A DNA stretch of 64,000 nt from a bacterium (GTDB lineage: Bacteria > Patescibacteriota > Minisyncoccia > UBA6257 > 2-01-FULL-56-20), in the NCBI GenBank assembly GCA_021827685.1, contig JAKAUM010000007.1:9842-73841 (forward strand). The letters run 5' to 3'. The notes beneath the pieces are model-generated. The model did not search any database. It was not told where the DNA came from and saw only the letters and a program-made list of their open reading frames with translations. Of this stretch, positions 14,922 through 63,572 are shown one piece after another. Position 1 is the stretch's first letter, and each line of letters starts with the position of its first letter. A program made the position numbers and the translations under genes.

Positions 14922-15136
14922 GATGGCGGGTAAGTGATTTTTGATAAAACAAAAGCGGCACCCCAAAGCCGCAACGCTATTTCCTCGACAGGCCTTATTC
15001 CCTCTTTATGTAATCGATATGGGATGCCTGCGGTCTTTGGAAGCACTCCCATTATACCGGCCGCACGTTCCGTGTCAATAGCGTTCCGCCTACCGCTTCG
15101 GCGGGAACGATCGCCGCGATATTATCGCCTTGTCTG
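14922..15136 (-). promoter_or_regulatory. Long 5' leader of rplJ, possible L10-leader autoregulatory structure
   Basis: ~215-nt non-coding stretch with several hairpins between tRNA-Ser and the rplJ start; no rplK/rplA upstream. Confidence 0.25.
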
Positions 15137-15223
15137 CGGAAGCGGGAGGATTCGAACCTCCGATGCCCTTTCGGGCATACCTGATTTCGAGTCAGGCCCA
15201 TTCAACCGCTCTGGCACGCTTCC
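15137..15223 (-). tRNA. tRNA-Ser (anticodon CGA), type II with long variable arm
   Basis: Manual fold: GGAAGCG acceptor, anticodon loop CTCGAAA, variable arm TATGCCCGAAAGGGCATC, T-arm GGAGG-TTCGAAT-CCTCC. Confidence 0.75.
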
Positions 15224-16579: not shown

Positions 16580-16613
16580 GCGCAACAACTCTCGAGATTG
16601 TTGCGCTTTTTTT
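16580..16613 (+). terminator. Rho-independent terminator (GCGCAACAA-loop-TTGTTGCGC + T7)
   Basis: 9-bp perfect stem followed by TTTTTTT; sits between the convergent peptide gene and the metallopeptidase gene. Confidence 0.7.
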
Positions 16614-17424
16614 AGTTTGTTACCTCCATAAATCTTTTGGGGTCAGTTTTCATTAACTCTTCCCAAGATAGATTTTTGTTTCTATTTATAAACTCCTTGA
16701 CTAACCAGTAGCCCGTAGAATATCCGTTCCATTTTTTATATTTACCATTTCCAAATAAAAATTCTTTTATCACTTTTTGTTCTTTTGATTCTAGCGTGTT
16801 TTTATCTAAATCTTTTAGAATCTGAAAAGCTTCCTCTTTTTCTAATGCCCCCGCCCACTTTGTAGTTTTAGGATCAAAATATTGTTCCCTAAAATTTTCC
16901 GCCAATCCCTCCAGCAATATTTCATCTAAAAGTGTATAGCTATTAAAGTCATCGTAATGGTGATAGTAATAAATTGTATGATTTAGCTCGTGGGCGACAG
17001 TATTTTTGATAGATTCTTCCGAATATTCTTCTAAATTTATAAACAAATGAAAAACGCAACTATAAACAGCAACCGCCATTACGCCATCAAAAACTTTATC
17101 GTCTTTAGTCGTGAGATATGGATGGACAAAGATAAAATTCCTCGTCGGGACAGATAATTTCTCGTCGCACTTCTCGACAGTTTCCGAAATGACTTTTTCT
17201 ATCTCTGATTTTTGATCTTCGGAAATTTCCTTATACTGTTCAATATTCCCATTTCCAATATGATCTAGTAAGCCCTGCCTTAATAGTTCGATATCAGCAT
17301 AACCAGAATAATCAATACTACCTTGGTTTTTCATCAAGAAGATAATTGATTCAACAATCTCAGTTTTGTCTTTGAATTCTCCGTTTGGAAAATAGAATTC
17401 AACTCGTGATAAATCTTTACTCAT
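16612..17424 (-). CDS. Predicted Zn-dependent metallopeptidase, DUF2268-like (HExxH)
   Basis: VAHELNHTIYY contains an HExxH motif; very AT-rich gene (~30-35% GC) with Lys/Glu/Asn-rich codon usage unlike the host. Confidence 0.65.
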   Translation of the reverse strand: MSKDLSRVEFYFPNGEFKDKTEIVESIIFLMKNQGSIDYSGYADIELLRQGLLDHIGNGNIEQYKEISEDQKSEIEKVISETVEKCDEKLSVPTRNFIFVHPYLTTKDDKVFDGVMAVAVYSCVFHLFINLEEYSEESIKNTVAHELNHTIYYYHHYDDFNSYTLLDEILLEGLAENFREQYFDPKTTKWAGALEKEEAFQILKDLDKNTLESKEQKVIKEFLFGNGKYKKWNGYSTGYWLVKEFINRNKNLSWEELMKTDPKRFMEVTN

Positions 17425-18082: not shown

Positions 18083-18931
18083 TCACCTGAGCAAGAATAC
18101 GCCGAACGCGGCGACGAGGGCCGCAGCGACCTTTTTCCAAAGGCGGTCACGCTCGTTAAGAAAAACGGCGCCAAGCATCACCGTAAGCACGATCACCGAT
18201 TGATTGATGGGAGCGAGCCGCGATATGGCGCCGCCTCGTTGGTATGCGAGATACAATAGTATCGCCGACGCTGAATACGTAACCGCAAGGAATATCATTT
18301 TCACGACGGTCGCCGGGCGAGCCAGGGGTTTTAATTCGAAGACAACCCGTGGACGAATAAGAAAGATAAAAATAGCGGGGAGGAGAAAAGCGGCGGTGGT
18401 ATATGAAAGCGCATCCGCGTATCGCAGAATGAAGGCATCGTTGGCAAATGCCGTGCCATAGCAGAACGCAGCGCCGAGCGCGTACAATCCCTCCCTGCCG
18501 AAGCGCAATGCATTTCTTCCGTAGACGACGATGACGACGCTTACGAAGATGAGAACGATTCCTACGATATTCAACGCGGTGAGCGATTCCCCGAAAAACA
18601 ACGTGGCAACCGCAATAGTCCAGAGGCCGCTCGATGACTTAAGCACCGTGACTTCCGAAACCTCCGCGCGCTGTAAGGCCTTAAGAAGCAATAGCGTTCC
18701 CGTGCCGTAAAGCACGCCGGTGAGGATAAAATTCGGGATGAGCCGCGGCATCGGCGGGAGAGAAAATCCATGCAAGCCCGCCGCAACCCCGACAAGCGCG
18801 CCGCAGGCCAATTGGAAAACGAGCGAATAGCTTATCGTACTGCTCTCTGCGTCTTCCATCAGGGCGCGCTGGAACAAGTTCGCAATGGCAAGCAGTACCA
18901 CGCTTATAATGGCGAGCGAATACCAGTTCAT
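18083..18931 (-). CDS. EamA/DMT-family transporter
   Basis: ~10 TM helices, two EamA-like halves; GC intermediate (~53%). Confidence 0.8.
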   Translation of the reverse strand: MNWYSLAIISVVLLAIANLFQRALMEDAESSTISYSLVFQLACGALVGVAAGLHGFSLPPMPRLIPNFILTGVLYGTGTLLLLKALQRAEVSEVTVLKSSSGLWTIAVATLFFGESLTALNIVGIVLIFVSVVIVVYGRNALRFGREGLYALGAAFCYGTAFANDAFILRYADALSYTTAAFLLPAIFIFLIRPRVVFELKPLARPATVVKMIFLAVTYSASAILLYLAYQRGGAISRLAPINQSVIVLTVMLGAVFLNERDRLWKKVAAALVAAFGVFLLR

Positions 18932-19141
18932 GGACTTATTTTAGCAAAGCGGCGATCTTTTAGGCCCTTGCGCTTTTATATAGCCCGGCGGGGGTGGCCG
19001 AACCGCGCAAATCCCCCGCCCCGCCCCGCCCCGCCTGTTCCGCCTTGTGCCGACGCCCGGGTTCGCTTACTATTTTGATGAAATCCGCGGCTCGTGGCGC
19101 GTGATCCCCCTGCGAGCGGTGGCGGCATCCATATTTAGAGA

Positions 19142-19228
19142 GGAGGCGTGCGTGAGCGGTTGAAACGGACGGTCTTGAAAACCGTTATGCCAGAAATGGC
19201 ATCGAAGGTTCGAATCCTTCCGCCTCCG
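19142..19228 (+). tRNA. tRNA-Ser (anticodon UGA), type II
   Basis: Manual fold: GGAGGCG/CGCCTCC acceptor, 3-bp D-stem CGT/ACG, anticodon loop CTTGAAA, long variable arm TATGCCAGAAATGGCATC, T-arm GAAGG-TTCGAAT-CCTTC. Confidence 0.75.
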
Positions 19229-19306
19229 CCCGTTAGGGCATCGGTTCGAGAGACCTTCCGGCCTCGAGTTTTGCTATCTTTTTGAAATGCAGTTCAGGCG
19301 ATGAAA

Positions 19307-19335
19307 GTCGGCAGGTGTCCAGGATTCGAACCTGC
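19307..19335 (-). other. tRNA 3'-half-like fragment (T-arm GCAGG-TTCGAAT-CCTG + acceptor-like), inverted relative to tRNA-Ser; possible att-site remnant
   Basis: Shares GGTTCGAATCCT with both tRNA-Ser genes; no matching 5' half could be folded. Confidence 0.3.
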
Positions 19336-19366
19336 TGAAGAATAATCCTGATCTATAATACAAATT

Positions 19367-20407
19367 ATGGACTTTGCACGTTTAGACAAACTACGCCCCG
19401 GCAACAAAATTGCCGTCCTTTCCCCTTCCTTCGCTGCGCCGGGGAAATGGCCCTGGGTATATGAGCTCGGCTTGAAGCGCTTGCGTGAGGTATTTGGACT
19501 TGAACCGGTGGAATTCCCCACCACTAAAAAGATCGGCGCTTCAAAAGAGGAACGATCAAAAGATTTGATTGATGCGTTCGAGAATAAAGAGGTTAAGGCG
19601 GTCATCGCGTCCCTCGGCGGCGACGATCAGATAACGTATATCAAAAATCTTCCCGTCGAGCCGTTCGTCAATAATCCCAAGCCATTTTTTGGGTTCAGCG
19701 ACAATACACACTTTGAGAATTTCCTCTGGCTGCATGGCATCCCCTCCTACTACGGCGGATCGCTCTTTACCGAGTTCGCGATGCAAAAACGCATGGATCC
19801 CTACACGGTGGAATATCTTAAGCACGCCCTGTTCGATAAAGACGAATTCGAACTGAAGCCAAGTGATATGTATAACGACATGGGACTCGACTGGAATGAT
19901 CCGGCAAATCTCGACAAAGAGCGCGTCTATGAAAAGAATGAGGGATGGCTCTGGGACGGCACGCAAAATGCCGAAGGCACTACATGGGGCGGGTGCGTAG
20001 AATCCATCGACGAGCTCCTGCGGCACGGGGTTCAAATCCCGTCGCTTCAGGATTTCGAAAATGTCGTGCTTTTTGCCGAAACCTCCGAAGAAATTCCCTC
20101 AGCCGATTACGTGCGCCGCGTCTATCGCGCCCTCGGCGAGCGAGGAATCTTGCAGCGCGTGAAAGCTGTGCTGACCGGCCGCCCGAAAGCGTGGGAATTT
20201 AGTAACGAACGCAACGCGGAAGAGAAACACGCCCACCGGGAAGCGCAAAGAGCGGCAATCACCAAAACCGTAAGGCAGTACAATTCTTCTATCCCGATCA
20301 TCCACAATCTCGACATCGGACACACCGCACCGCAGATTCCTTTGCCGAATGGAAGACGAATCCGAATCGACGCGAAAGAAAAGAAAATATTCGTCGATTT
20401 CTCATGA
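19367..20407 (+). CDS. S66-family LD-carboxypeptidase (MccF/LdcA-like)
   Basis: GFSDNT (catalytic-Ser block), LFAETSEE (Glu block), IGHTAPQIPLPNG (His block); perfect TATAAT 7 nt upstream of the ATG. Confidence 0.8.
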   Translation: MDFARLDKLRPGNKIAVLSPSFAAPGKWPWVYELGLKRLREVFGLEPVEFPTTKKIGASKEERSKDLIDAFENKEVKAVIASLGGDDQITYIKNLPVEPFVNNPKPFFGFSDNTHFENFLWLHGIPSYYGGSLFTEFAMQKRMDPYTVEYLKHALFDKDEFELKPSDMYNDMGLDWNDPANLDKERVYEKNEGWLWDGTQNAEGTTWGGCVESIDELLRHGVQIPSLQDFENVVLFAETSEEIPSADYVRRVYRALGERGILQRVKAVLTGRPKAWEFSNERNAEEKHAHREAQRAAITKTVRQYNSSIPIIHNLDIGHTAPQIPLPNGRRIRIDAKEKKIFVDFS

Positions 20408-21525
20408 GGCATCGTGCGGCGGTATTTGTGCTCGATAACGGCAAAGTTCTCCTCTTCCATCGCTTCAAGAATGGGGATGAATATTATGCCGTTCCGGGCG
20501 GCGGTGTTGAGGCCAACGAAACTCCGGAAGAGGCCGCAATAAGAGAGCTAAAAGAAGAAACCAATTTGGATGTACTGCTCGGAGAAAAAATCGGAGAGCT
20601 CGAAGAAGATAGCAACCGACAATACTTCTATATTGCGAAGTCTTGGGCCGGCACACCGACACTCGGCGGCCCGGAAGCGGAACGCAATTCACCAAACAAC
20701 CAGTATATCCTCGAATGGATACCGATCAAGAAACTGGAAGGTATAAATTTGAGAACTGATATAGCGGCCATTCTTCTGAAACACGCAAACACGACCCAAT
20801 CCGACATCTTCTCCCGCATCAAAGCGCTCAACCTCCCCTTCGGCGAATATGTCGTCGTTTCAAGCGGCACCCTTGAGGCGCTGGGCATCCGTCCGGCGCG
20901 CGATCTGGATATCGCCGCAACGTCAAAGCTTTTCGAGAAACTCCGCGCGGAAGGCGGATGGACCGAAGAAGAGCGGTACGGGAAGATCTTCCTCAGCAAG
21001 CCCGGCATCGATATCATCCGCCAGCTTTCATGGGATACTTACCCCACCACTACCGAAGAAGCCATTAGATCGGCGCTCGTCATCGAAGGCATCCCATTTA
21101 TGAATCTTGATGAGTTGAAGCGATTCAAACGAGCGCTTGGCCGCGAAAAGGATTTTACAGATATCAAACTTATCGAAAAATATGAAGAAAATGCCGCACT
21201 GCGGTTCCTCCATAAAACCGTAACCGCAACTATCGATCGCCCGCTCGGGAGCGAGCATCCAAAGTGGAATTTTGAATATCCAATCAACTACGGATCTATC
21301 CAAAATACGAAAAGCAGCGATGGCGAGGAGGTTGATGCCTATGTGTTGGGCATAAATGAGCCGCTCAAGGAATTCACGGGAAAATGTATCGCGATCATCC
21401 ATCGCCTGGATGATGATGACGACAAGCTGGTGCTCGCGCCCGAAGGCATGGATTTTAGCGACGACGACATCCGGACAACCACCCATTTCCAAGAGCAATA
21501 CTTTACATCGGTGATTGTGAGATAA
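20404..21525 (+). CDS. Three-domain fusion: Nudix hydrolase + polβ-type nucleotidyltransferase + family-I inorganic pyrophosphatase-like domain
   Basis: Nudix box (GGVEANETPEEAAIRELKEETNL); middle VVVSSGTLEALGIRPARDLDIA (GS...DxD NTase signature); C-terminal YPINYGSIQNT...DGEEVDAYVLG...DDDDDKLVLAPEG resembles soluble PPase; 4-nt overlap with upstream gene. Confidence 0.65.
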   Translation: MRHRAAVFVLDNGKVLLFHRFKNGDEYYAVPGGGVEANETPEEAAIRELKEETNLDVLLGEKIGELEEDSNRQYFYIAKSWAGTPTLGGPEAERNSPNNQYILEWIPIKKLEGINLRTDIAAILLKHANTTQSDIFSRIKALNLPFGEYVVVSSGTLEALGIRPARDLDIAATSKLFEKLRAEGGWTEEERYGKIFLSKPGIDIIRQLSWDTYPTTTEEAIRSALVIEGIPFMNLDELKRFKRALGREKDFTDIKLIEKYEENAALRFLHKTVTATIDRPLGSEHPKWNFEYPINYGSIQNTKSSDGEEVDAYVLGINEPLKEFTGKCIAIIHRLDDDDDKLVLAPEGMDFSDDDIRTTTHFQEQYFTSVIVR

Positions 21526-21532
21526 TAAGAAT

Positions 21533-22165
21533 ATGAAGCTTCTCCTCACTTCCTGCGGATGGGAATACAATCCGAAGATCGCGAAAGAATTCCTGCGCCT
21601 GATCAGTAAGAAACCCGCTCAAATAAAAATCTTTCTGGTCACTACCGCGGACAAGAAAAACAAAGATTGGAAATGGGTGAAGCGGCAAGTGAGGATGATC
21701 GCGAGAATCGGCATCGCCGAGAAGAATATCGAGATTTTCAGTTTGGATAGAAAAATAAGGAAAGATGAACTTGCATACATCGACGCCGTCTATGTATGCG
21801 GAGGTAACACGTTCCTCTATCTGCACGGCATCAGAAAGACAGGATTGGATAAGGTGATAGCCAAATTCACCAAAAAGGGCGGGCTGTATTATGGCATAAG
21901 CGCGGGCAGCATTCTTGCAGGACCAGACATCGCGTTCATCACTCCCCTGGATGACCCGAGCGTAGTCCGAGCGCTTCCAACGGTGAAGGTGATACACACA
22001 AAAGGACTTTGCCTGACCAATGTAGGCGTCGCCCCACACTATAACAACAAGGAGTACGTAGGCGTCATTAACGAATCCCGCGCGAAATCAAAATTTCCCA
22101 TCGTGCCGCTTACCGATACGCAGGCGCTCGCGATCGTCGGGCGGAAAAAGAAAATCATTGAATAA
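21533..22165 (+). CDS. Peptidase E / S51 family (alpha-aspartyl dipeptidase or cyanophycinase-like)
   Basis: VCGGNTFLYL and GISAGSIL (Ser nucleophile) motifs. Confidence 0.75.
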   Translation: MKLLLTSCGWEYNPKIAKEFLRLISKKPAQIKIFLVTTADKKNKDWKWVKRQVRMIARIGIAEKNIEIFSLDRKIRKDELAYIDAVYVCGGNTFLYLHGIRKTGLDKVIAKFTKKGGLYYGISAGSILAGPDIAFITPLDDPSVVRALPTVKVIHTKGLCLTNVGVAPHYNNKEYVGVINESRAKSKFPIVPLTDTQALAIVGRKKKIIE

Positions 22166-22168
22166 CCT

Positions 22169-22666
22169 ATGATCATCTTTCTCAACGGCTCCATTAATTC
22201 CGGCAAGAGTACCGCGGCAAAACTCCTTGCCGAGAAGATCTCAAACTCGGCAATCGTGGAGATCGATGCTCTGCGCGACATGATTGCGTGGATGCAGATC
22301 GATCAGGCGGTTCCCATAAATCTTGAAAATGCCGTAGCGGTCATCCGCATTTTCACAAAGCACGGCATCTCCTGCATCGTCCCTTATCCTCTCTCCGAAA
22401 AGAACCACGCCTATATGACCGATGCGCTTGCGGGCATCGGGACGCCGATCCATTATTTTACTCTCGCGCCATCCATTGAGACGGCACTCTCCGACCGGGG
22501 TGGCAGGAAACTCGACGGTGTGGAACGGGATCGGATCAAGCGTCACTATGCAATCGGCATCCATACACCATCGTTCGGCACGACCATCGACAATTCAAAG
22601 CGCACACCACAAGAGACAGTGGAAATAATTTTGGCTAGTATCGATCTTGAGCGTCATAACATTTAA
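22169..22666 (+). CDS. Small P-loop NTPase, predicted small-molecule/nucleoside kinase (AAA_33/CPT-like)
   Basis: Walker A GSINSGKST at the N-terminus; 165 aa. Confidence 0.6.
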   Translation: MIIFLNGSINSGKSTAAKLLAEKISNSAIVEIDALRDMIAWMQIDQAVPINLENAVAVIRIFTKHGISCIVPYPLSEKNHAYMTDALAGIGTPIHYFTLAPSIETALSDRGGRKLDGVERDRIKRHYAIGIHTPSFGTTIDNSKRTPQETVEIILASIDLERHNI

Positions 22667-22671
22667 AATGT

Positions 22672-23298
22672 ATGAAAACGATGTGTATCCTCTATGTCGT
22701 CAGGCATGGCGAAACCGATGCGAACGCGAAAGGCCTCATTCAGGGCCAATCAGATTTTTCTCTTACAAGCATCGGGGAGAGCCAAGCGACCAATCTCGCA
22801 AAGAAATTTAAACATATCCATTTCGCCGCCGTATTCTCATCGGACCTAATACGTGCACGGAGGACCGCCGAGATAATTACACTTGAAAAGAAGCTCGCCG
22901 TTAATACCAGTCATCTTCTTCGTGAACGCAATTTCGGAAAGTACGAGGGGAAGCCGCAAACGCTATTTCGAGAAGAGAATGAGGAATTTCTGAGACAACT
23001 TACGGCATTGCCCTATGAGGAGGGGAAAAAATTGAAAGCCGCGGAAGATATCGAAAACGATGACGAATTAACGGCTCGGTTCATCACATTCTTGCGCGAG
23101 ATTGCCGTAACGTATCAGGGAAAGACCGTTTTGGTTGTTACGCACGCTGGTGTGATGCGTGCGTTTTTGAGACATATGAATCACGATTCGTCGAGCGGCT
23201 TTATCGAAAACGCGGGATACTTCAGGCTCCGTTCGGACGGAATCAACTTTTTCGTCGATGAGACGTCTGGCATAGGCGAGTCTCCTCGATCGCGCTGA
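22672..23298 (+). CDS. Histidine phosphatase superfamily protein (phosphoglycerate-mutase-like)
   Basis: VVRHGETDANAKG (RHGE motif); SSDLIRARRTAE. Confidence 0.8.
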   Translation: MKTMCILYVVRHGETDANAKGLIQGQSDFSLTSIGESQATNLAKKFKHIHFAAVFSSDLIRARRTAEIITLEKKLAVNTSHLLRERNFGKYEGKPQTLFREENEEFLRQLTALPYEEGKKLKAAEDIENDDELTARFITFLREIAVTYQGKTVLVVTHAGVMRAFLRHMNHDSSSGFIENAGYFRLRSDGINFFVDETSGIGESPRSR

Positions 23299-23503
23299 TC
23301 GTCCCGATACAATTTGTTTTAGGCACACACATATGGCGGACTAGGTTTTGAATTCGGCAAGGGCTTCGTTTGGCGTCTTGCCGCCCAATCCGCATGTGTA
23401 GGAATCAAGATGAAGAGAAATACTGGCGCGAAACGAGCTGCGATCAACAATGGAGAAACCTATCGAGAAACCGAGATACCTCAAATTTCGCCCGTAAGCT
23501 ATA

Positions 23504-23893
23504 ATGACCGCAACAAAAATCGTCATAACTCATGCAAGCGCGCTGCCTTGGAAAGGCGAATTTTATGCGGCGGTTCGAGCATCTCGGCTGTACGAAAATA
23601 ATGATGTTTTCTTGCCGCAAGAGAAAAACAAACCGGAGCAGATTACCAAAGAGCGAATCGAACATTGCGACCTCATGATTGCTGAAGTTTCTTGCCCCTC
23701 AACGGGGCAAGAAATAGAACTTGGATGGGCGGATGCCTATCATCGCCCGATTATTTGCGTTCATCAGGAAAAAAACGCTGTTTCGAACTCGCTACGATTT
23801 ACCACGAGCGAATTCATCAGCTATAAGGATTCCGAAAACCTGATTGCACAGCTTGAGCGGCTGATCCTAGAGAAATATCAACCCGCGGCATAG
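23504..23893 (+). CDS. Nucleoside 2-deoxyribosyltransferase-like (NDT/YtoQ fold) protein
   Basis: CDLMIAEVSCPSTGQEIELGWADAYHRPII, the NDT-like ExG + conserved acidic pattern. Confidence 0.55.
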   Translation: MTATKIVITHASALPWKGEFYAAVRASRLYENNDVFLPQEKNKPEQITKERIEHCDLMIAEVSCPSTGQEIELGWADAYHRPIICVHQEKNAVSNSLRFTTSEFISYKDSENLIAQLERLILEKYQPAA

Positions 23894-23966
23894 TTTCCGC
23901 ATAATGTTCTTCTTATAGAAGCGCTTGCGGCCGAACCCGCGCGCGCAAACATGGTAGAATGAGATT

Positions 23967-25049
23967 ATGGATGACAAGCGCGTGATCCGGATTGTCGAGA
24001 AGGTTATGCCCTCGGTAGTCTCGATCGTCATTTCGAAACATCTGGAAGACCTGGAAAAAGAGCTTCCGAAGGAAATGTTCCCCTTCATCCCGGAGGGGGC
24101 GGGCGGGCGGCGCCCCGGGATCGGCAAGGGAGCCGGCGCCGGAACGCTCAAAATCCCGAGCGATATGGTGGATAAAAACGGCATGGTCCAAGTAGGCGGC
24201 GGATCAGGCACGGTGGTCGCGCCGGACGGCCTCATCCTCACGAACAAGCACGTGGTCGCCGACCGGCGTGCGGCATATACGGTGATTCTCGATGGGGACC
24301 GGCGGTTCCCGGCGGAGATCCTGAGCCGCGATCCCATCAACGATGTCGCTATCCTTAAAATCGGCGCAGGCGGGCTTCCCTTCTTAAAACTCGGCGATGC
24401 GGCGAAGCTGAAGCTCGGCCAGTCGGTCATCGCAATCGGGAACGCCCTCGGCATTTTCCGGAACACGGTCTCTCTCGGCATTGTTTCCGGCCTGTCCCGC
24501 TCCGTGACGGCGCAGGCGGAGCCGGACGCCGCGCCGCAGGAGATGCGCGGACTCATCCAGACCGATGCCGCAATCAATCCCGGCAACTCGGGCGGCCCGC
24601 TCGTGGACAAAAACTGCCTCGTCGTCGGCGTCAACACCGCAGTCGTTTCCGGCGCGCAGAGCATCGGCTTTGCGATCCCCGTGAACGCCGCCCGGCGCGA
24701 CCTCGAGGACATCGCGCGCTACGGACGCATCCGGCGCCCCCTTCTCGGCCTCCGCTATCTTATGATCGACGACGACCTTAGGGCGAAGCTCGACCTCCCG
24801 GTGGACTACGGCGCGCTCGCCATCCGCGAAAGCAACCATGACGGAGCGGTGGTGCCGGAGAGCCCCGCCGCGAAAGCCGGCCTCCGCGAAAAAGACATCG
24901 TGCTCTCGCTGAACGGGGCGCGCCTCGATCGCGACCATCCTATCCAGGATTTTCTGGAAAATTTGAACGTCGGCGACGAAATCGCGCTCACCGTCCTCCG
25001 CGGCGCGAAACGGTTCGAGGCGAAACTGACGCTTGCAGAAAGGAAATAA
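23967..25049 (+). CDS. htrA: HtrA/DegP-family serine protease with PDZ domain
   Basis: TNKHVV (His), D, GNSGGPL (Ser) triad; C-terminal PDZ; TAGAAT -10 just upstream of the ATG. Confidence 0.85.
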   Translation: MDDKRVIRIVEKVMPSVVSIVISKHLEDLEKELPKEMFPFIPEGAGGRRPGIGKGAGAGTLKIPSDMVDKNGMVQVGGGSGTVVAPDGLILTNKHVVADRRAAYTVILDGDRRFPAEILSRDPINDVAILKIGAGGLPFLKLGDAAKLKLGQSVIAIGNALGIFRNTVSLGIVSGLSRSVTAQAEPDAAPQEMRGLIQTDAAINPGNSGGPLVDKNCLVVGVNTAVVSGAQSIGFAIPVNAARRDLEDIARYGRIRRPLLGLRYLMIDDDLRAKLDLPVDYGALAIRESNHDGAVVPESPAAKAGLREKDIVLSLNGARLDRDHPIQDFLENLNVGDEIALTVLRGAKRFEAKLTLAERK

Positions 25050-54896: not shown

Positions 54897-56351
54897 CTAA
54901 AGCGCTTCGAGGTCGAGAACGTGATCGATCTTTATCTGTTTTACGAATTCCGGCACGTGACTCACGAGGATCATGGCTCCTTCGTAGCGGTCGAGTGCTT
55001 TTGCAATCACGGGAATATGGCGGAAATTGATGTGATTCGTCGGCTCGTCGAGGATGAGGATCCCGGGGTGGAGAAGGGTGAGCCGCGCAAATGCCACGAG
55101 TCCTTTCTGGCCTTCGGAGAGTAAGCCGATCTTTGTTCTTAATATTTCCGCATTGAGAAGAAATCCGGCGGCGGCGGAGCGGAGCTCTTGTTCCGTACCA
55201 TTGTCTTTAATCGCAGCGGCGAGCGTGCTATACACCGTCGCCGTAAAATCGAGCGTCGAAAAATCTTGGCGGTAGTAGCCGATGCGCACGCCCGGCGCGA
55301 TACACTCCCCCTTTGCATGGCCGCTCGCCAGCTTTTCGAGAAGCGTGGTCTTGCCTATTCCATTCGGGCCGGCGAGAAGAAGCCGTTCTTTTTTCTTGAG
55401 CGTTACGTCAACTTTTTTCACCGCGGGCCTATGATTTTTTATTATCGAAACCGAGGCGAGATCGAGGATCTTCCCGCTTAAATTTTCTTGGCAGGGAATC
55501 ACAAAACTCCGGATGGTCTTGTCTTCGTGCCGCATTTCCACGATATCCTCCTCAAGCTTCTCGATTTTTTCTCTCATCTTCCGCGCAACGTCCCGCATGT
55601 GGCCGCCCTTTTGGGCGAAGAAACCAGCTTGATCCTTCCGATGCGCGATGTCCTTTTCCAGCCGGACGTTCTTCATCCGCTCGCGTTCGAGGCGTATCGA
55701 GATTTCTTTCGTCACGTCCGAATAGTCGCCGGCGTATTGCTCCACCTTATGCGTAAACACGTCGAGGTACAGGACGCCGTGGGTAAAGGAGTTCAAAAAA
55801 TCCGCGTCGTGCGAAATAACGATGCAGGTCTTCGGGTACGCGGCGAGGAATTCCGTAAGGTGGGCGATGCCTTGCTTATCGAGATTGTTCGTCGGCTCGT
55901 CGAGCAATAAAATATCCGGATCTTGGATGAGCGCTTGAGCCAAAAGAATGCGCGCCTGCTGGCCGCCGGAAAGGGACTTCAAGGTTCTTTCGATGGGAAT
56001 TTTGAGATGAACCACTTCCAGGATCTTTTCAATTTTAGGTTCGATGTCATACTGCTTTTTCCTGAAGGCGCTTTCAAAAAATTCTTTCACCGTAAGCCCC
56101 ATAAGGTCTGCGGGGATGACCTGGCGCGCAGTCGCAATCGTCGCATCTTCCGTCACGGTGATACTGCCCGACTCCGGCACGAGCGTTCCCGTAATCATCT
56201 GGAAGATGGTGGTTTTCCCGGCGCCGTTCTGGCCCATGAGGGCGATTTTGGATCCTTCGCGCACGGAAAAGTCCGCTTCCCGGAGAATCGGCCTGCGGTC
56301 GTACTCGAAAGAAACTTTATCGAATCTCAAAATGACGTCGTTGCCGGGCAT
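54897..56351 (-). CDS. ABC-F family ATPase (two tandem ABC domains, no TMD)
   Basis: Two Walker A/B + signature sets with an interdomain linker. Confidence 0.85.
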   Translation of the reverse strand: MPGNDVILRFDKVSFEYDRRPILREADFSVREGSKIALMGQNGAGKTTIFQMITGTLVPESGSITVTEDATIATARQVIPADLMGLTVKEFFESAFRKKQYDIEPKIEKILEVVHLKIPIERTLKSLSGGQQARILLAQALIQDPDILLLDEPTNNLDKQGIAHLTEFLAAYPKTCIVISHDADFLNSFTHGVLYLDVFTHKVEQYAGDYSDVTKEISIRLERERMKNVRLEKDIAHRKDQAGFFAQKGGHMRDVARKMREKIEKLEEDIVEMRHEDKTIRSFVIPCQENLSGKILDLASVSIIKNHRPAVKKVDVTLKKKERLLLAGPNGIGKTTLLEKLASGHAKGECIAPGVRIGYYRQDFSTLDFTATVYSTLAAAIKDNGTEQELRSAAAGFLLNAEILRTKIGLLSEGQKGLVAFARLTLLHPGILILDEPTNHINFRHIPVIAKALDRYEGAMILVSHVPEFVKQIKIDHVLDLEAL

Positions 56352-56352
56352 A

Positions 56353-57315
56353 TTATTTCGAGGACTTTATTTTATTAAGAAGTGCTTCCATATTTTTCAT
56401 GCTCAGGGCGTCTTTCACCGATACTGTCGCCGCATTCGGGTTCAGTTTTTTTAATACCGCCAATTTTGCCTTGCGCGTCGCTTCATCCGCGAGATCGCTT
56501 TTGGAGAGAAATAGGTACTCCGGCTTCTTCAGCAGTTCTTTGCCGTGCGCGCCCAATTCTTTGCGGACCAATTTATAGTCCCCTTTCGGGTCGCCGGATT
56601 CGGCGGAAACAAAATGGAAGAGGATCCTGGTGCGCTCGATGTGCCGCAGAAATTTTGTCCCCAATCCTTTTCCGGACGATGAGCCCTCGATAAGACCGGG
56701 AATATCGGCGATGGTCAGTTCGTAGTATGCGCCGAGGTTCGGCTCGAGCGTGGTGAAAGGATAATCCGCAACCTTGCTCCGGGCGTTCGTGAGCGCGTTC
56801 AACATGCTGGATTTCCCGGCGTTCGGCAGGCCTACGAATCCAATGTCGGCAATAAGCCTAAGCTCCAAATGCAGTTCGAACGTTTCGCCCGGCCGTCCGC
56901 CCTGGGATTGAAGCGGAGAGGTGTTGCGCGAAGAACGGAAGTGAAAGTTGCCCCGGCCGCCGATGCCGCCGCGCGCAAGGAGTATGCGCTCGCCGATCTT
57001 TTCCACGCTTGTTTCGGTCCCGTTCGTGAGATTGTGCACTTCGGTTCCTACCGGGAGCTTGAGCACAAGGTCGTCGCCCCTGCGTCCGTCGCGCAGCTGG
57101 CCCTGACCGACGCCGCCGTCCTTTGCTCCAAATTCTTTTTTATACCGGAATTGTTTCAGCGCGCTGACATCCGAGACGCCCACGGCAAATACGTCGCCAC
57201 CCTTTCCGCCGGACGCGCCCGTGGGCCCGAGGGCTTTGAGGTTGCTGTTAAATGCCACCGCGCCCTTGCCGCCGTTTCCGGCAGAAATTTTGATATGTAC
57301 ATCATCTATGAGCAT
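56353..57315 (-). CDS. obg: GTPase Obg (no C-terminal OCT domain)
   Basis: Gly-rich Obg fold, then G1 GLPNAGKSS, G3 DIPG, G4 SKSD. Confidence 0.9.
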   Translation of the reverse strand: MLIDDVHIKISAGNGGKGAVAFNSNLKALGPTGASGGKGGDVFAVGVSDVSALKQFRYKKEFGAKDGGVGQGQLRDGRRGDDLVLKLPVGTEVHNLTNGTETSVEKIGERILLARGGIGGRGNFHFRSSRNTSPLQSQGGRPGETFELHLELRLIADIGFVGLPNAGKSSMLNALTNARSKVADYPFTTLEPNLGAYYELTIADIPGLIEGSSSGKGLGTKFLRHIERTRILFHFVSAESGDPKGDYKLVRKELGAHGKELLKKPEYLFLSKSDLADEATRKAKLAVLKKLNPNAATVSVKDALSMKNMEALLNKIKSSK

Positions 57316-57379
57316 CCGGTTAGAATGGCATTCTAAACTATTATCACTATTATTGCCATCGGTCCTGCGCTATGATCGA

Positions 57380-57859
57380 ATGATGGAAGAAATGGAAAAA
57401 ATCGAACCGTTCCATGTCACGCAGGAAGGCTTGGAACGCTTGCGCGAGCGGCTTGCATACCTCAAGCGTGTTTTGCCCGAACGCGCCGAGGAAACGAGGA
57501 GGGCGGCCGCGTACGGCGACCGTTCGGAAAACGACGAATACAAAACGGCGAAAGGAGCTTTACAGCATACCAAGTGGCGGATTCTGGAAATCGAAGACCA
57601 AATTAAACGCGCGGTCATAATTACCTCCGGCGCTTCCGCCTCGGGCATGGTGCAGATCGGTTCACGGGTGACGCTCGGCGAGGGCGCTGCGAAAAAGACG
57701 TTTCAGATCGTCGGCCCGCACGAAACCGATCCCGCGCGGGGCCGCATTTCTTACCGATCGCCGCTCGGCGCGGCGCTCCTCGATCGACGGAGGGGGCATG
57801 TCATCGAGGTGGAGTCGATAAACGGAACCAAAAAATACCGGATCATAGAAATACAATAG
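57380..57859 (+). CDS. greA: Transcription elongation factor GreA
   Basis: N-terminal coiled coil with acidic tip (DRSENDEY); C-terminal FKBP-like domain. Confidence 0.85.
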   Translation: MMEEMEKIEPFHVTQEGLERLRERLAYLKRVLPERAEETRRAAAYGDRSENDEYKTAKGALQHTKWRILEIEDQIKRAVIITSGASASGMVQIGSRVTLGEGAAKKTFQIVGPHETDPARGRISYRSPLGAALLDRRRGHVIEVESINGTKKYRIIEIQ

Positions 57860-58023
57860 CTGCCTGATTGCTCCCCGATTTGGACGAGTTTCGAACCAGA
57901 GATTGGGAACAGATTGTACGTGGTTTAGCTTATCTCGATGTGCCGCGGCTGCGGCTTGCAGTGGCGGCATAAGGGGGGGTATATTGGCGACAAAGGTCGA
58001 TTACAAGGCCTATTACATACATC

Positions 58024-58629
58024 ATGAAAAAAATACTACTGGGTGGAGCGGTGGCTGCTGGAAGCCTCCTTGCGTTTTCGTTGGTCGCTCTTGCTGCGCC
58101 ATCGGTCCACACGAATTTCGGCAAGACGCTCAATGCCAGCACCTGCAACACGAGTGGTGCCCCGATCGTAAATGTCTCGCTCAAGGTGATCAACGATTCC
58201 GATTCCGGTTTCGGTGGCAACGCATGGGCAAACGACGATTATGTAAAGACGATCCAGGTGTGGCCGCAAGCAGATGGAACGAACTGCGCTATCGTGAAAT
58301 ACGAAGGGCAGTTCGTTACCTATGATGGATTGAGTCCGAGCGGCAACTCGACGGTAGCGGCTGGAGTTAGGGGAGCGTTTGAGGGCGGCTATCAGGCCAC
58401 CTTCGATGGAACACTTACTCCCACGCTGCCGACCCACGGAAACCTTGGCACGTATGATTATGCGTGCGATGGAACGTTCACATGCAACACGTTCGATTGG
58501 GTGAGCGCCTACTTTACTGGCAATACATTCTTCAACCAGCCGTATTGGGCGTGGGACTACCATGCCGGTCACAATGGGAGCTGGGTGAACGCAAGCACTG
58601 GTAGTTCTGGCGACATCACCGGGAGCTAA
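58024..58629 (+). CDS. Secreted hypothetical protein with signal peptide
   Basis: MKKILLGGAVAAGSLLAFSLVALAA signal; Gly/Asn/Thr-rich, 6 Cys. Confidence 0.5.
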   Translation: MKKILLGGAVAAGSLLAFSLVALAAPSVHTNFGKTLNASTCNTSGAPIVNVSLKVINDSDSGFGGNAWANDDYVKTIQVWPQADGTNCAIVKYEGQFVTYDGLSPSGNSTVAAGVRGAFEGGYQATFDGTLTPTLPTHGNLGTYDYACDGTFTCNTFDWVSAYFTGNTFFNQPYWAWDYHAGHNGSWVNASTGSSGDITGS

Positions 58630-58655
58630 ACGAGTGAGTGCGGAACGATAAGCGT

Positions 58656-58682
58656 AAAAACAGCCCAAGTGGGCTGTTTTTA
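58656..58682 (+). terminator. Bidirectional rho-independent terminator (A5-CAGCCCA-AGT-GGGCTG-T5)
   Basis: Perfect stem flanked by an A-run and a T-run, 27 nt after the secreted-protein stop. Confidence 0.7.
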
Positions 58683-58787
58683 CTGGACAACCCTGCGTGA
58701 GGACTCGGTCTGGGGCGTACGATTCAGCCCGTAAAAGCTGGGCAAAACCAGTTCGTTGATTTTTCATGGGGAATCCGTATTATATAA

Positions 58788-59027
58788 GTGATGGACAAGA
58801 CCTCCTCAAAAAGCGGCGCGATGAGCAAAATCGCGCCAAAAGAAGTTGTAGACAAGAACGCTCCGGCCCTGAAGGCCTACGATGCGTATAAGAGAGCGGC
58901 CGACATCATAGAACAAGCCGACATTGCCTCCGGCAAGCGCGTCGTTTTCAAATCGAGCACTGGCTCTGCGATCAACTTCCAGATAGACCTGCATGGCACT
59001 TACTCAACCACAGCGCAAGAGATTTAG
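58788..59027 (+). CDS. Hypothetical 79-aa protein
   Basis: ORF with moderate GC; first gene of the element; overlaps the next gene start. Confidence 0.3.
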   Translation: MMDKTSSKSGAMSKIAPKEVVDKNAPALKAYDAYKRAADIIEQADIASGKRVVFKSSTGSAINFQIDLHGTYSTTAQEI

Positions 59028-60015: not shown

Positions 60016-60096
60016 CAAGAGATAGCATGTCTTCGGCAGCGCTCAATCGGCGCTGCTTTTTGACGTGCGGGCAAATGTAAACTAAAGTAAAGCGTA

Positions 60097-61170: not shown

Positions 61171-61385
61171 GCAATCCACAGAAGACTTGGCATTACGACG
61201 AGGTCTGGTGGGAGTTATTCGAGACGCACTATCCCAAAAATCCGACCGAGGCAGACGCGAAGAAAATCTACAATGCCGCCTATGATCTGAACCAGCTCAT
61301 CGCGCAACAAACGACGATAAACGATTTCGTGGATGTGACGATGACTACGTTGAGGGTGAACGAGAAGTATCTTCCGCTCGGGTAG
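61053..61385 (+). CDS. OmpR/CadC-type winged-helix DNA-binding domain protein (either standalone or the frameshifted C-terminus of the upstream ORF)
   Basis: KIIVSRSKNTRPYFLLKILLSNPQKTWHYDEVWWELF resembles the trans_reg_C wHTH. Confidence 0.4.
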   Translation: MAPAGGFSATSDELCFNGKKIIVSRSKNTRPYFLLKILLSNPQKTWHYDEVWWELFETHYPKNPTEADAKKIYNAAYDLNQLIAQQTTINDFVDVTMTTLRVNEKYLPLG

Positions 61386-61449
61386 CAGAGATTCAGCAGA
61401 GTTCTGCTGACTGCGGTAGGCATATCCTGATGAAAAATCAGGATCTTTT

Positions 61450-61689: not shown

Positions 61690-61694
61690 AACCA

Positions 61695-62846: not shown

Positions 62847-62866
62847 AGTATCATAAAGCTAATACC

Positions 62867-63049: not shown

Positions 63050-63051
63050 CC

Positions 63052-63570: not shown

Positions 63571-63572
63571 CT

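What the first reader, a model, noticed from the sequence alone, without database searches (positions are those of the whole stretch)
19367..23893. Lower-GC six-gene operon 3' of tRNA-Ser(UGA): MccF-like S66 peptidase, Nudix-NTase-PPase fusion, peptidase E, P-loop kinase, His-phosphatase, NDT-like protein
All six genes are on one strand with 0-6 nt spacers (one 4-nt overlap). The GC is ~47-50% against a ~65-70% host, and the block starts 140 nt after a tRNA-Ser with an inverted tRNA T-arm fragment in between. This is the classic signature of an island at a tRNA. The gene set is coherent: S66 (MccF-type enzymes cleave the aminoacyl-nucleotide amide bond of processed microcin C-like compounds) and S51 (Asp-X dipeptidase) sit with four nucleotide-handling enzymes (Nudix, nucleotidyltransferase, pyrophosphatase, kinase, phosphatase, N-ribosyl transferase/hydrolase-like). 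Plausible roles are immunity or detoxification against peptidyl-nucleotide (Trojan-horse) antibiotics, processing of such a compound, or a scavenging/salvage module in a small-genome bacterium. I do not know of a described system with this composition.
Basis: partly seen in the sequence, partly recalled or inferred. Interest (0 to 1): 0.75.

Follow-up and report, generated by a model that had tools for sequence, protein, structure and literature searches.

The report
Acquired nucleotide-conjugate hydrolase cassette at tRNA-Ser
A small-genome (CPR/Patescibacteria-type) bacterium has picked up, next to a serine tRNA gene, a lower-GC gene cassette that recurs in related bacteria and always starts with one of two unrelated enzymes whose families include members that destroy "Trojan-horse" aminoacyl-nucleotide antibiotics, followed by nucleotide-handling enzymes; what it really acts on has not been tested.

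Summary
The genes, the tRNA and the low GC are real, with corrections. Block GC is 0.497 and the host is about 0.60, not 65-70%. Only g1-g5 are tightly packed (-4, 7, 3, 5 nt). g6 follows a 205-nt gap and is probably a separate unit.

Horizontal acquisition is well supported:
- In about 40 syntenic relatives the tRNA-Ser-to-HtrA interval ranges from 63 nt (empty) to 5.7 kb.
- None of those intervals carries g1-g6.
- An 80%-identical copy of tRNA 3' end + spacer + g1-g4 lies in other CPR genomes beside a different tRNA-Ser isoacceptor.
- I found no integrase and no flanking repeats in the window.

The core is a recurrent CPR module: [S66 or HIT] - NTase/NUDIX/short PPase-like domains in varied fusions - S51 - CPT-like kinase. 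Fusions tie g4 to the PPase-like domain and g5 to the NTase domain. The HIT that replaces S66 carries the MccH signature ExxxxxHxHxK. Two unrelated families that each include aminoacyl-adenylate-cleaving enzymes therefore alternate at one position.

g1's best structural relative is an uncharacterised Bacillus S66 paralog, and no substrate is known. g5 and g6 are later add-ons.

The parts
19142..19230 (+). tRNA-Ser(UGA), native to this genome. Its last 28 nt (TCGAAGGTTCGAATCCTTCCGCCTCCGC) are identical to the 3' end of the tRNA-Ser(GCU) that precedes the cassette in L177, and this patch is the likely crossover site.
   Evidence: ARAGORN and Rfam tRNA, 57.5 bits. It is nearly identical to the tRNA-Ser(UGA) of the closest block-free relative L092. 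Homology to L087 begins inside the tRNA at window 19183.
19231..19366 (+). Conserved leader/spacer of the cassette. It holds a terminator-like hairpin plus T-run for the tRNA, a minus-strand tRNA T-arm/acceptor-like fragment (about 19307-19337), and a TATAAT 9 nt before the g1 ATG.
   Evidence: It is 89.5% identical to L087, 91% to L177, 87% to L091 and 85% to L113 over the first ~100 nt, against 80% for the coding DNA. There is no Rfam match. In L113 it is preceded by a degenerate second copy of a tRNA-Ser 3' end.
19367..20407 (+). g1: S66 serine peptidase of MccF-like length (346 aa), with Ser-Glu-His motifs GFSD109, ETSEE238 and GHT318. It is the head gene of the cassette and overlaps g2 by 4 nt (ATGA).
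   Evidence: Pfam S66 N+C. PDB sequence search: BA_3275 paralogs 186 bits, MccF 55-69 bits, LdcA 24 bits. It scores 45 bits on the NCBIfam LdcA model (cut-off 378). It is 89% identical in L087, and a C-terminal remnant survives in L176.
20404..21525 (+). g2: three-domain fusion. It combines NUDIX (residues 1-128, intact Nudix box at 33), a minimal pol-beta-type nucleotidyltransferase (129-262; SSG...DLD at 153, DII at 203), and a short family-I pyrophosphatase-like core (263-373; IDRP, YPINYG, DGEEVD, DDDDDK).
21533..22165 (+). g3: S51 peptidase of the Lmo0363/DR_1070 type (SAG123, PH168).
   Evidence: Pfam 93.5 bits. PDB: 3l4e, 6iru and 6a4t at ~63 bits, Salmonella PepE at 27 bits. It occupies the same position in L087 (77%), L177 (76%) and L006/L007 (60-62%), and a 34-aa remnant survives in L091.
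22169..22666 (+). g4: ~160-aa P-loop small-molecule kinase-like protein (Walker A GSINSGKS at 7). It belongs to a CPR-wide family related to chloramphenicol-phosphotransferase (CPT).
22672..23298 (+). g5: histidine phosphatase, branch 1 (RHG11, THAG157). It is an add-on that is absent from the related cassettes.
   Evidence: Pfam 150 bits; the best NCBIfam match, alpha-ribazole phosphatase, is below its cut-off. It is 79% identical to the C-terminal half of P0052, whose N-terminal half is a g2-type NTase domain.
23299..23503 (.). 205-nt gap between g5 and g6, with an antisense 61-aa ORF (23341-23526). It breaks the operon-like packing.
   Evidence: No similar sequence was found in any fetched locus.
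23504..23893 (+). g6: small Nuc_deoxyrib_tr-superfamily protein resembling NMP N-glycosidases (MilB, BlsM, DNPH1), with the conserved Glu in ELGWA72. It is probably a separate transcription unit (TATAAT overlaps its ATG).
   Evidence: Pfam 27.2 bits, just under the 28.8 cut-off. PDB: 4jen, 5vto and DNPH1 at E~1e-3. Only 10 homologs were found. The closest ones lie after uvrB (L174) and between dnaB and recR (L173), not in this cassette.
23894..23940 (.). Right junction of the acquired DNA. The native HtrA promoter (ATGGTAGAAT, ~23945-23957) and HtrA (23967-25049) follow.
   Evidence: The extended -10 motif upstream of HtrA is conserved in the relatives examined. GC rises to 0.63 in HtrA.

Best explanation
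The block is horizontally acquired DNA in a hotspot between a tRNA-Ser gene and htrA of a Patescibacteria/CPR-type genome. It is a mosaic.

What was acquired:
- The left 3.4 kb is tRNA-Ser 3' end, a conserved ~135-nt leader, and g1-g4. It is a copy of a module that lower-GC relatives keep beside tRNA-Ser(GCU)/infB.
- Entry was most likely by recombination in the 28-nt 3' end that the two tRNA-Ser isoacceptors share (inferred).
- g5 and g6 were added from other sources.

What the module looks like: [MccF-like S66 peptidase or MccH-type HIT phosphoramidase] - NTase/NUDIX/short PPase-like domains - S51 peptidase - CPT-like P-loop kinase.

Most likely function (inferred, not shown): it hydrolyses and disposes of aminoacyl- or peptidyl-nucleotide conjugates, such as processed microcin-C-like aminoacyl-tRNA-synthetase inhibitors or similar imported metabolites.
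- The head enzyme cuts the amino acid off the nucleotide: S66 at the C-N bond, HIT at the P-N bond.
- S51 deals with the peptide or aspartyl part.
- NUDIX, NTase, the PPase-like domain and the kinase process the nucleotide part. Here the added His-phosphatase and the N-glycosidase-like protein may also take part. The PPase-like domain would remove the pyrophosphate released by NUDIX and NTase.

Shown: acquisition, mosaic structure, module conservation, domain fusions, head-gene alternation, intact catalytic motifs.
Inferred: substrate class, order of steps, and mechanism of integration.
For: Acquisition:
- GC is 0.497 against 0.60, lower than all 465 control windows. GC3 is 0.49-0.61 against 0.73-0.79.
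- Synteny tRNA cluster - tRNA-Ser - HtrA - hyp316 - LeuRS is conserved in relatives. The gap ranges from 63 nt to 5.7 kb and never contains g1-g6.
- In relatives the filler GC equals the local GC.
- Window 19183-22619 is 80.1% identical to L087 over 3439 nt, starting inside the tRNA. There the module follows tRNA-Ser(GCU).
- L113 shows a duplicated tRNA-Ser 3' end in front of the same leader.
- The 28-nt tRNA 3' ends are identical.

Module:
- Same order and spacing in L087/L088.
- HIT - mid+PPase - S51 - kinase in L177.
- HIT - mid - NUDIX+PPase - kinase in L175.
- An S66 remnant precedes the fusion gene and kinase in L176. S66 or S51 lies next to NUDIX/PPase genes in L006, L007, L023 and L056.
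- Fusions: kinase+PPase in P0078, NTase+HisPhos in P0052, and permuted g2 domains.

Substrate class:
- HIT proteins in the S66 position carry FEGFGVDH(V/I)HAK = ExxxxxHxHxK and lack the N-terminal His. This is the MccH-clade signature.
- Members of that clade hydrolyse processed McC. Standalone homologs from two Parcubacteria were tested in E. coli: DG_74_2 is named inactive, and the text implies GWA2_40_37 was among the active ones (PMC7157772).
- MccF is an S66 peptidase that cleaves the Asp-AMP amide, whereas LdcA does not protect against McC (PMC8323819).
- g1 scores far higher with MccF-type structures than with LdcA.
- A more LdcA-like S66 paralog sits next to murD in L178.
Against: - No integrase, no att direct repeats and no mobility genes are in the window. 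The module is not found on viral contigs.
- I could not see the rest of this genome. A native copy, or a replacement of one, cannot be excluded.
- g1's best match is the uncharacterised BA_3275 paralog (186 bits), not MccF (55-69 bits). The adenine-stacking Trp of MccF could not be aligned.
- One of the two Parcubacteria MccH homologs tested in the literature was inactive on E. coli McC.
- HIT, NUDIX, PPase and small kinases are also typical house-cleaning enzymes.
- The g4 family is very widespread and well conserved in CPR. That fits a housekeeping role better than a resistance role.
- The PPase-like domain lacks the N- and C-terminal parts of family-I PPases (profile positions 31-110 of 153), so its activity is uncertain.
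- g6 is not co-conserved with the module.
- No mcc-like biosynthetic genes are nearby.
Confidence: 0.45

Rival explanations
1. General nucleotide-pool house-cleaning and salvage set of a scavenging small-genome bacterium. NUDIX plus PPase hydrolyse non-canonical (d)NTPs, HIT acts as a generic phosphoramidase, and the kinase, phosphatase and N-glycosidase recycle the products. The two peptidases are merely neighbours serving peptide nutrition, with no peptidyl-nucleotide substrate.
For: - Neighbouring genes in related loci are classic sanitising or salvage enzymes: Ham1/ITPase, a second NUDIX, dCMP deaminase, NDK and PNP.
- The g4 family and the PPase-like domain are very widespread and well conserved.
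- g6 homologs lie next to uvrB, dnaB/recR and an HhH-GPD glycosylase.
- The NUDIX-PPase fusion fits NTP -> NMP + PPi -> 2 Pi.
Against: - It does not explain why S66 and S51 keep the same positions, with 3-7 nt spacing or a 4-nt overlap, across lineages.
- It does not explain why the head position alternates specifically between an MccF-like S66 and a HIT with the MccH-type HxHxK motif rather than the housekeeping HxHxH.
Confidence: 0.25
2. A toolbox of independent antibiotic- or xenobiotic-modifying enzymes (a resistance cassette). Members would be an Lnu/ANT-like nucleotidyltransferase, a CPT/TmrD-like kinase, APH in relatives, and MccF/MccH-like hydrolases. Each would act on a different compound rather than forming one pathway.
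For: - g4 lies near TmrD (15.2, the highest identity at 23%) and CPT (15.0). Many g4 homologs hit PF07931 CPT.
- APH genes lie next to the module in L087, L175 and L178.
Against: - The NTase domain matches uncharacterised TM1012 and the MenT toxins better.
- g4 matches gluconate and APS kinases equally well.
- Covalent fusions NTase-NUDIX-PPase, kinase-PPase and NTase-HisPhos argue for coupled rather than independent activities.
- All resistance-family matches are below curated cut-offs.
Confidence: 0.12
3. Peptidoglycan or UDP-MurNAc-peptide recycling. The S66 would be an L,D-carboxypeptidase (LdcA-like), S51 would trim the peptide, and NUDIX, PPase and the kinase would handle the UDP-sugar part.
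For: - S66 is the LdcA family, and Pfam names its domains LD-carboxypeptidase.
- From general knowledge, LdcA also accepts UDP-MurNAc-tetrapeptide, a natural peptide-nucleotide conjugate.
Against: - g1 scores 45 bits on the LdcA equivalog model (cut-off 378) and 24 bits with the LdcA structure, against 55-186 bits with MccF-type structures.
- A more LdcA-like paralog (114 bits) sits next to murD in L178, apart from the module.
- Replacement of S66 by a HIT phosphoramidase makes no sense for muropeptide trimming.
Confidence: 0.08
4. A conflict system (toxin-antitoxin or anti-phage defence) built around a MenT/AbiEii-like nucleotidyltransferase toxin, or simply a chance collection of unrelated genes in a junk-accumulating hotspot.
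For: - The hotspot holds unrelated cargo in other genomes.
- g5 and g6 are clearly separate additions.
Against: - PADLOC gives only a generic NUDIX hit.
- There is no antitoxin-like partner, and the NTase is fused to hydrolases.
- The order of g1-g4 is conserved at 77-89% amino-acid identity in another genome, with variants in at least five more. That excludes chance for the core.
Confidence: 0.05

Closest known systems
MccF (S66) self-immunity/resistance peptidases against microcin C, including stand-alone homologs such as B. anthracis MccF
   Same: g1 has the S66 two-domain architecture, an MccF-like length (346 aa) and intact Ser/Glu/His motifs. It scores far better with MccF-type structures than with LdcA. 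It is a stand-alone gene outside any mcc cluster (PMC8323819).
   Different: The best match is the uncharacterised BA_3275 paralog group, not MccF itself (186 against 55-69 bits). The nucleotide-stacking Trp was not verified. g1 is embedded in a multi-enzyme cassette that known mccF genes lack.
MccH-clade HIT phosphoramidases (Yagmurov et al. 2020, PMC7157772)
   Same: In homologous cassettes (L085, L091, L175, L177, and a remnant in L089) the head gene is a HIT protein. It has the clade's ExxxxxHxHxK motif and has lost the N-terminal His. Parcubacteria stand-alone homologs belong to the clade described in the paper.
   Different: This gene is not present in the window itself, where S66 takes its place. 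Clade membership was judged from motifs only, with no tree. One Parcubacteria homolog was inactive on E. coli McC.
tRNA-gene-associated genomic islands and integration hotspots
   Same: The block lies immediately 3' of a tRNA gene, has deviant GC and GC3, shows empty and differently filled sites in relatives, and shares a tRNA 3' end with the donor-type locus. L113 has a duplicated tRNA 3' end.
   Different: The window has no integrase, no flanking direct repeats and no mobility genes. The block is only 4.7 kb and mosaic. Entry may have been by homologous recombination rather than site-specific integration.
Nucleotide house-cleaning enzymes (MutT-type NUDIX, family-I inorganic pyrophosphatase, DNPH1/MilB-type NMP N-glycosidases)
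   Different: The PPase-like domain is only ~110 aa (profile positions 31-110 of 153) and is fused to NUDIX, NTase or kinase domains. All equivalog scores are far below cut-off. g6 lacks the usual N-terminal phosphate-binding motif of DNPH1 (by inspection).
Minimal pol-beta nucleotidyltransferases (TM1012, MenT toxins, LnuA, ANT(2''))
   Different: There is no sequence-family match in Pfam or NCBIfam. The domain is smaller (134 aa), always fused or adjacent to NUDIX/PPase/His-phosphatase, and has no antitoxin partner.

Membership tests
MccF-type S66 peptidase | S66 N- and C-terminal domains | tested here: met
   PF02016 at 76.3 bits and PF17676 at 73.8 bits.
MccF-type S66 peptidase | Ser-His-Glu catalytic triad | tested here: met
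   GFSD109, ETSEE238 and GHT318 are present and align with the same motifs in 5f9m. Assigning them to the triad rests on general knowledge of the family.
MccF-type S66 peptidase | Closer to MccF than to LdcA | tested here: inconclusive
   MccF structures score 55-69 bits and LdcA 24 bits, but the uncharacterised BA_3275 paralogs score 186 bits. On the LdcA equivalog model g1 scores 45 bits against a cut-off of 378.
MccF-type S66 peptidase | Adenine-stacking Trp (W186 in E. coli MccF) in the inter-domain loop, and activity on aminoacyl-adenylates | not testable with these tools
   g1 has Trp176, Trp194 and Trp196 in the inter-domain insert, but no residue-level alignment to 3TLC could be obtained. 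Activity needs an assay.
MccH-clade HIT phosphoramidase (for the head gene of sister cassettes) | ExxxxxHxHxK motif with loss of the N-terminal His | tested here: met
   FEGFGVDHVHAK is present in L085, L091 and L175, and FEGFGVDHIHAK in L177. The position of the N-terminal His is occupied by Thr. Criteria are from PMC7157772.
MccH-clade HIT phosphoramidase (for the head gene of sister cassettes) | Phylogenetic placement in the MccH clade and hydrolysis of processed McC | not tested
   Reference sequences (KKR61370.1, KPJ57467.1) were not available as text, so no tree was built.
tRNA-linked genomic island | Deviant composition relative to the host | tested here: met
   GC is 0.497 against 0.601 +/- 0.031, with 0 of 465 control windows as low. 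GC3 is 0.49-0.61 against 0.73-0.79.
tRNA-linked genomic island | Empty site in related genomes | tested here: met
   In L116/L117 tRNA-Ser ends 63 nt before HtrA. The gap is 171 nt in L160 and 236 nt in L094. None of ~40 informative loci holds g1-g6.
tRNA-linked genomic island | Integrase/recombinase and flanking direct repeats (att sites) | tested here: not met
   There is no second copy of the tRNA 3' end at the right edge and no recombinase among the six genes. A duplicated tRNA-Ser 3' end was seen only in L113.
Family-I inorganic pyrophosphatase | Full-length PPase domain with all substrate-binding residues | tested here: not met
Chloramphenicol phosphotransferase-like (CPT) kinases | Score above the family cut-off; substrate-binding features | tested here: inconclusive
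   g4 scores 17.3 bits against a cut-off of 22. Many homologs are annotated PF07931. The fold is equally close to gluconate kinase, APS kinase, TmrD and CPT.
Nucleoside 2-deoxyribosyltransferase / DNPH1-MilB superfamily (g6) | Family score and catalytic Glu | tested here: inconclusive
   g6 scores 27.2 bits against a cut-off of 28.8. PDB hits to MilB, BlsM and DNPH1 have E~1e-3 over ~45 residues that include ELGWA72.
Known anti-phage defence systems (PADLOC) | Match of the components to defence-system models | tested here: not met
   Only the NUDIX domain hits candidate model PDC-S07. The other five proteins have no hit.

The most novel reading that the evidence does not exclude
CPR/Patescibacteria carry a previously undescribed, recombination-mobile multi-enzyme module. 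It is headed interchangeably by an MccF-like peptidase or an MccH-like phosphoramidase and dismantles aminoacyl- or peptidyl-nucleotide compounds completely, down to amino acid, phosphate, sugar and base. The compounds could be Trojan-horse aaRS inhibitors made by neighbours or hosts. The module would thus give resistance and nutrient salvage at once. Its conserved ~100-nt tRNA-Ser-linked leader would be the recombination or regulatory handle that lets it move between tRNA-Ser isoacceptor genes.
Probability: 0.2. Interest if true: 0.75.

Novelty: new variant of a known kind. Interest (0 to 1): 0.55.

Why it matters
If the inference holds, the streamlined episymbiotic CPR bacteria would have a dedicated and widely shared answer to peptide-nucleotide antibiotics, or a route to feed on aminoacyl-nucleotides. 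These bacteria must import peptides and nucleotides and are therefore natural victims of Trojan-horse compounds.

It would assign a physiological setting to three orphan protein families: a Pfam-less NTase domain, a truncated PPase-like domain found across many phyla, and a ~160-aa CPT-like kinase with hundreds of CPR members. It would also add members to the short list of known McC-type resistance mechanisms.

The alternation of MccF-like and MccH-like genes at one position is a testable lead. Independently of function, the locus documents how a small cassette moves between tRNA-Ser isoacceptor genes in CPR genomes without a visible integrase.

Tried and rejected
- Rfam on 18900-24000 found nothing in the spacer or the g5-g6 gap except the tRNA.
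- A search for att-like direct repeats of the tRNA 3' end and other repeats found none at the right edge.
- The promoter/terminator scan was no better than shuffles.
- PADLOC found no defence system.
- Viral-contig scans with g4 and with mid+PPase found no module on viral contigs.
- I tested whether the window's tRNA-Ser(UGA) is a hybrid with a donor-type 3' half. It is not detectably so: the tRNA matches that of block-free relative L092, and the 3' end is simply identical in donor-type and recipient tRNAs.
- I first read P0052 as NUDIX+HisPhos. tblastn showed it is NTase+HisPhos.
- The L113 kinase is only analogous to g4, not homologous.
- The listing of cluster members gave no organism names, so the taxonomic assignment rests on the names of homologs' sources.
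- The supplement of PMC7157772 gave accessions but no sequences for the Parcubacteria MccH homologs.
- I could not obtain a residue-level alignment of g1 to E. coli MccF to check W186.
- Fold search of g4 did not discriminate between substrates.
- Covariation analysis of the spacer was not attempted. Only five sequences of 85-91% identity were available, which gives too little power.

Full report
**1. What is there**

The six + strand ORFs exist at the stated coordinates. tRNA-Ser(UGA) lies at 19142-19230, 136 nt before g1.

Spacing is -4, 7, 3 and 5 nt for g1-g5, but 205 nt before g6. A TATAAT overlaps g6's start codon, and the public gene call for this contig omits g6. The tightly packed unit is therefore five genes, with g6 probably separate.

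g6 is nevertheless real. It has about ten homologs of 38-74% identity.

Domain calls hold for S66, NUDIX, S51 and His_Phos_1. The P-loop and Nuc_deoxyrib_tr matches are below Pfam cut-offs.

Catalytic motifs are intact in all six proteins.

**2. Composition**

Block GC is 0.497. The rest of the window averages 0.60, not 65-70%. None of 465 same-size windows outside the region is as low (mean 0.601, sd 0.031, minimum 0.503).

GC3 is 0.49-0.61 in the block and 0.73-0.79 in HtrA, hyp316 and LeuRS.

**3. Where the window comes from**

The window matches NCBI MAG contig DAHVPJ010000001.1 (GCA_027318325.1, 343 kb). Homologs come from Parcubacteria, Paceibacterota, Minisyncoccia and other Patescibacteria MAGs. 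The host is inferred to be a CPR bacterium.

**4. Island test**

Eighty loci encoding HtrA relatives (62-76% identity) were fetched. About 40 had usable upstream flanks.

They show the conserved order: tRNA cluster (Thr, Ser-CGA, Arg, Ala, Ser-UGA) - gap - HtrA - hyp316 - LeuRS. The distance from the nearest tRNA-Ser to HtrA is 63 nt in L116/L117, 171 nt in L160, 236 nt in L094, and up to 5.7 kb in others.

No filler has a homolog of g1-g6 (tblastn at 1e-6). Their GC equals the local GC. They encode mostly unrelated things: SpoU and SAM methyltransferases, DoxX, transporters, NUDIX in 3 of the 63 ORFs scanned, and S51 in 1.

The site is therefore a variable-content hotspot, and this cargo is unique among the relatives sampled. 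The native HtrA promoter motif is retained. That places the right junction between 23894 and about 23940.

**5. Where the cargo came from**

Window 19183-22619 aligns at 80.1% over 3439 nt with L087/L088. The aligned stretch runs from inside the tRNA to near the end of g4. L087/L088 is a lower-GC CPR genome (0.475-0.485).

In L087/L088, S66 - fusion - S51 - kinase have identical spacing. Amino-acid identities are 89, 79, 77 and 80%. There, as in L089, L091 and L177, the module follows tRNA-Ser(GCU) next to infB/rbfA.

The ~135-nt leader is 85-91% identical in L087, L091, L113 and L177. That is higher than for the coding DNA. Rfam has no family for it.

The window's tRNA-Ser(UGA) is native, matching block-free relative L092. 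Its last 28 nt are identical to those of the tRNA-Ser(GCU) of L177. This gives a ready crossover point.

In L113 an intact tRNA-Ser(CGA) is followed by a degenerate second tRNA-Ser 3' end fused to the same leader. NUDIX, a P-loop protein and a HAD phosphatase then follow.

The window has no integrase and no flanking repeat. The module is not on viral contigs. The mechanism of entry is therefore inferred.

g5 and g6 lie beyond the homology with L087:
- g5 is 79% identical to the C-terminal half of P0052, whose N-terminal half is a g2-type NTase domain.
- g6's nearest relatives lie after uvrB and between dnaB and recR.

**6. The module in other CPR genomes**

Variants found:
- L177: tRNA-Ser(GCU) - leader - HIT - NTase+PPase - S51 - kinase.
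- L175: HIT - NTase - NUDIX+PPase - kinase.
- L176: S66 remnant - NTase+NUDIX+PPase - kinase.
- L085: HIT - NUDIX+NTase+PPase - methyltransferase.
- L091: HIT - NTase+PPase - S51 remnant - another NTase.
- L089: HIT remnant - NUDIX+NTase - kinase.
- L006/L007: NUDIX+PPase - S51.
- L023 and L056: S66 beside PPase genes.

A 150-aa NUDIX and an APH on the opposite strand usually follow. P0078 fuses a g4-type kinase to the PPase-like domain. At least nine g4 homologs share contig lengths with g2 homologs.

The core g1-g4 is thus co-conserved. The g2, g4 and g5 families are tied together by fusions.

**7. Function**

The most telling observation concerns the first gene. It is either the S66 peptidase or a HIT protein whose motif is FEGFGVDH(V/I)HAK.

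That motif is the ExxxxxHxHxK signature of the MccH clade, combined with loss of the N-terminal histidine. MccH phosphoramidases hydrolyse the P-N bond of processed microcin C. Stand-alone Parcubacteria members of the clade were cloned and tested in E. coli; one of the two is named as inactive, and the other appears to be among the active ones (PMC7157772).

MccF is an S66 peptidase that removes the aspartate from the same compound, and LdcA cannot do so (PMC8323819).

g1 resembles MccF-type structures (55-69 bits) much more than LdcA (24 bits). Its best match, however, is the uncharacterised B. anthracis BA_3275 group (186 bits). A more LdcA-like S66 paralog lies next to murD in L178.

Two unrelated enzyme families that each include members cleaving aminoacyl-adenylate analogues alternate at one position of a conserved cassette. 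I take this as in-situ functional replacement.

The rest is inference:
- S51 would handle the Asp-X-like or peptide part.
- NUDIX, NTase, PPase and the kinase would process the nucleotide part, with PPi removal explaining the PPase fusions.
- The His-phosphatase and the N-glycosidase-like protein added here could finish the breakdown.

**8. Caveats and rivals**

All the nucleotide enzymes are also typical house-cleaning or salvage enzymes. Related loci carry Ham1, NDK, PNP and dCMP deaminase.

The g4 family is so widespread and well conserved in CPR (783 hits) that a housekeeping role is plausible. Its fold does not reveal a substrate.

The NTase and kinase also resemble antibiotic-modifying enzymes, so a resistance toolbox is possible. 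The covalent fusions argue for coupled activities.

The peptidoglycan-recycling and conflict-system readings fit poorly.

I could not inspect the rest of this genome. I do not know whether it also has a native copy.

**9. Novelty**

Full-text searches found no description of this module. Genomic islands in Patescibacteria are documented in general (PMC12455944).

The individual families and tRNA-linked islands are known. The composition, the S66/HIT alternation, the fusion network and the tRNA-Ser-linked leader appear undescribed. I rate it a new variant of a known kind, of moderate interest and directly testable.

Noticed in passing
window 16612-17424 (-): The DUF2268 (predicted Zn-protease) gene has GC 0.33 and GC3 0.32 in a ~0.60 GC genome. 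It is a much stronger compositional outlier than the block under study. It lies between tRNA-Ser(CGA) and tRNA-Arg and is probably a separate acquisition.
   Followed up: partly
window 15136-15223 (-) and 19142-19229 (+); loci L092-L171: The two tRNA-Ser genes form an 88-nt, 81%-complementary inverted repeat. In relatives the tRNA segment between them occurs in both orientations, so either Ser(UGA) or Ser(CGA) faces HtrA. This suggests recurrent inversion by recombination between the tRNA-Ser genes.
   Followed up: partly
window 19231-19333; L087 8831-8963; L177 6432-6531; L091 9427-9529; L113 881-982: The ~100-nt non-coding element directly after tRNA-Ser is 85-91% identical across five lineages. 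That is better conserved than the adjacent coding DNA (80%), and the element is followed by different first genes (S66, HIT, NUDIX). It contains a minus-strand tRNA T-arm/acceptor-like fragment and has no Rfam family. Its role (att site, promoter/leader or small RNA) is unknown.
   Followed up: partly
L113 586-1041: An intact tRNA-Ser(CGA) is followed by ~190 nt holding a long near-perfect hairpin. A degenerate second copy of a tRNA-Ser 3' end then joins the conserved element. This is an att-like duplication suggesting serial insertions.
   Followed up: no
L091 10734-10835; L176 6855-6983; L089 9873-9992: Short in-situ remnants of S51 (34 aa, 91% identical), S66 (45 aa, 64%) and HIT (40 aa, 80%) lie at the positions these genes occupy in sister cassettes. 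This shows ongoing gene loss and replacement in the module.
   Followed up: yes
window 23299-23503: The 205-nt gap between g5 and g6 holds an antisense 61-aa ORF (23341-23526) and a GGCAAG...CTTGCC hairpin. It is similar to nothing in any fetched locus.
   Followed up: no
window 23945-23966 and 19352-19366; upstream of HtrA in L092-L138: HtrA in the window and relatives, and g1, have a -10-like TAnAAT (often TGnTAnAAT) only 8-10 nt before the ATG. This suggests very short or absent 5' leaders.
   Followed up: no
L087 12000-21100: Downstream of the sister cassette is a low-GC stretch (0.36-0.43). It carries APH, a KsgA/Erm-type methyltransferase, a hexapeptide-repeat protein and glycosyltransferases, and it ends in a large serine recombinase (19709-21061, -).
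   Followed up: no
loci L008-L084: The ~110-aa truncated PPase-like domain is a widespread stand-alone or fused protein in gut Clostridia and Bacilli, Proteobacteria MAGs, Chloroflexota and DPANN/other archaea at 53-64% identity. It is an apparently uncharacterised short PPase-like family.
   Followed up: no
window 55000-64000: A second region of lowered GC (0.46-0.53) contains housekeeping genes (ABC-F, Obg, GreA) and several ORFs of 172-383 aa with no Pfam match.
   Followed up: partly
L172 3268-9026: The NTase+His-phosphatase fusion gene (P0052) lies just after mobile-element-like genes (ParB_N+N6_N4 methyltransferase, a Zn_ribbon_recom fragment). Guanylate kinase and another NUDIX follow it.
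   Followed up: no
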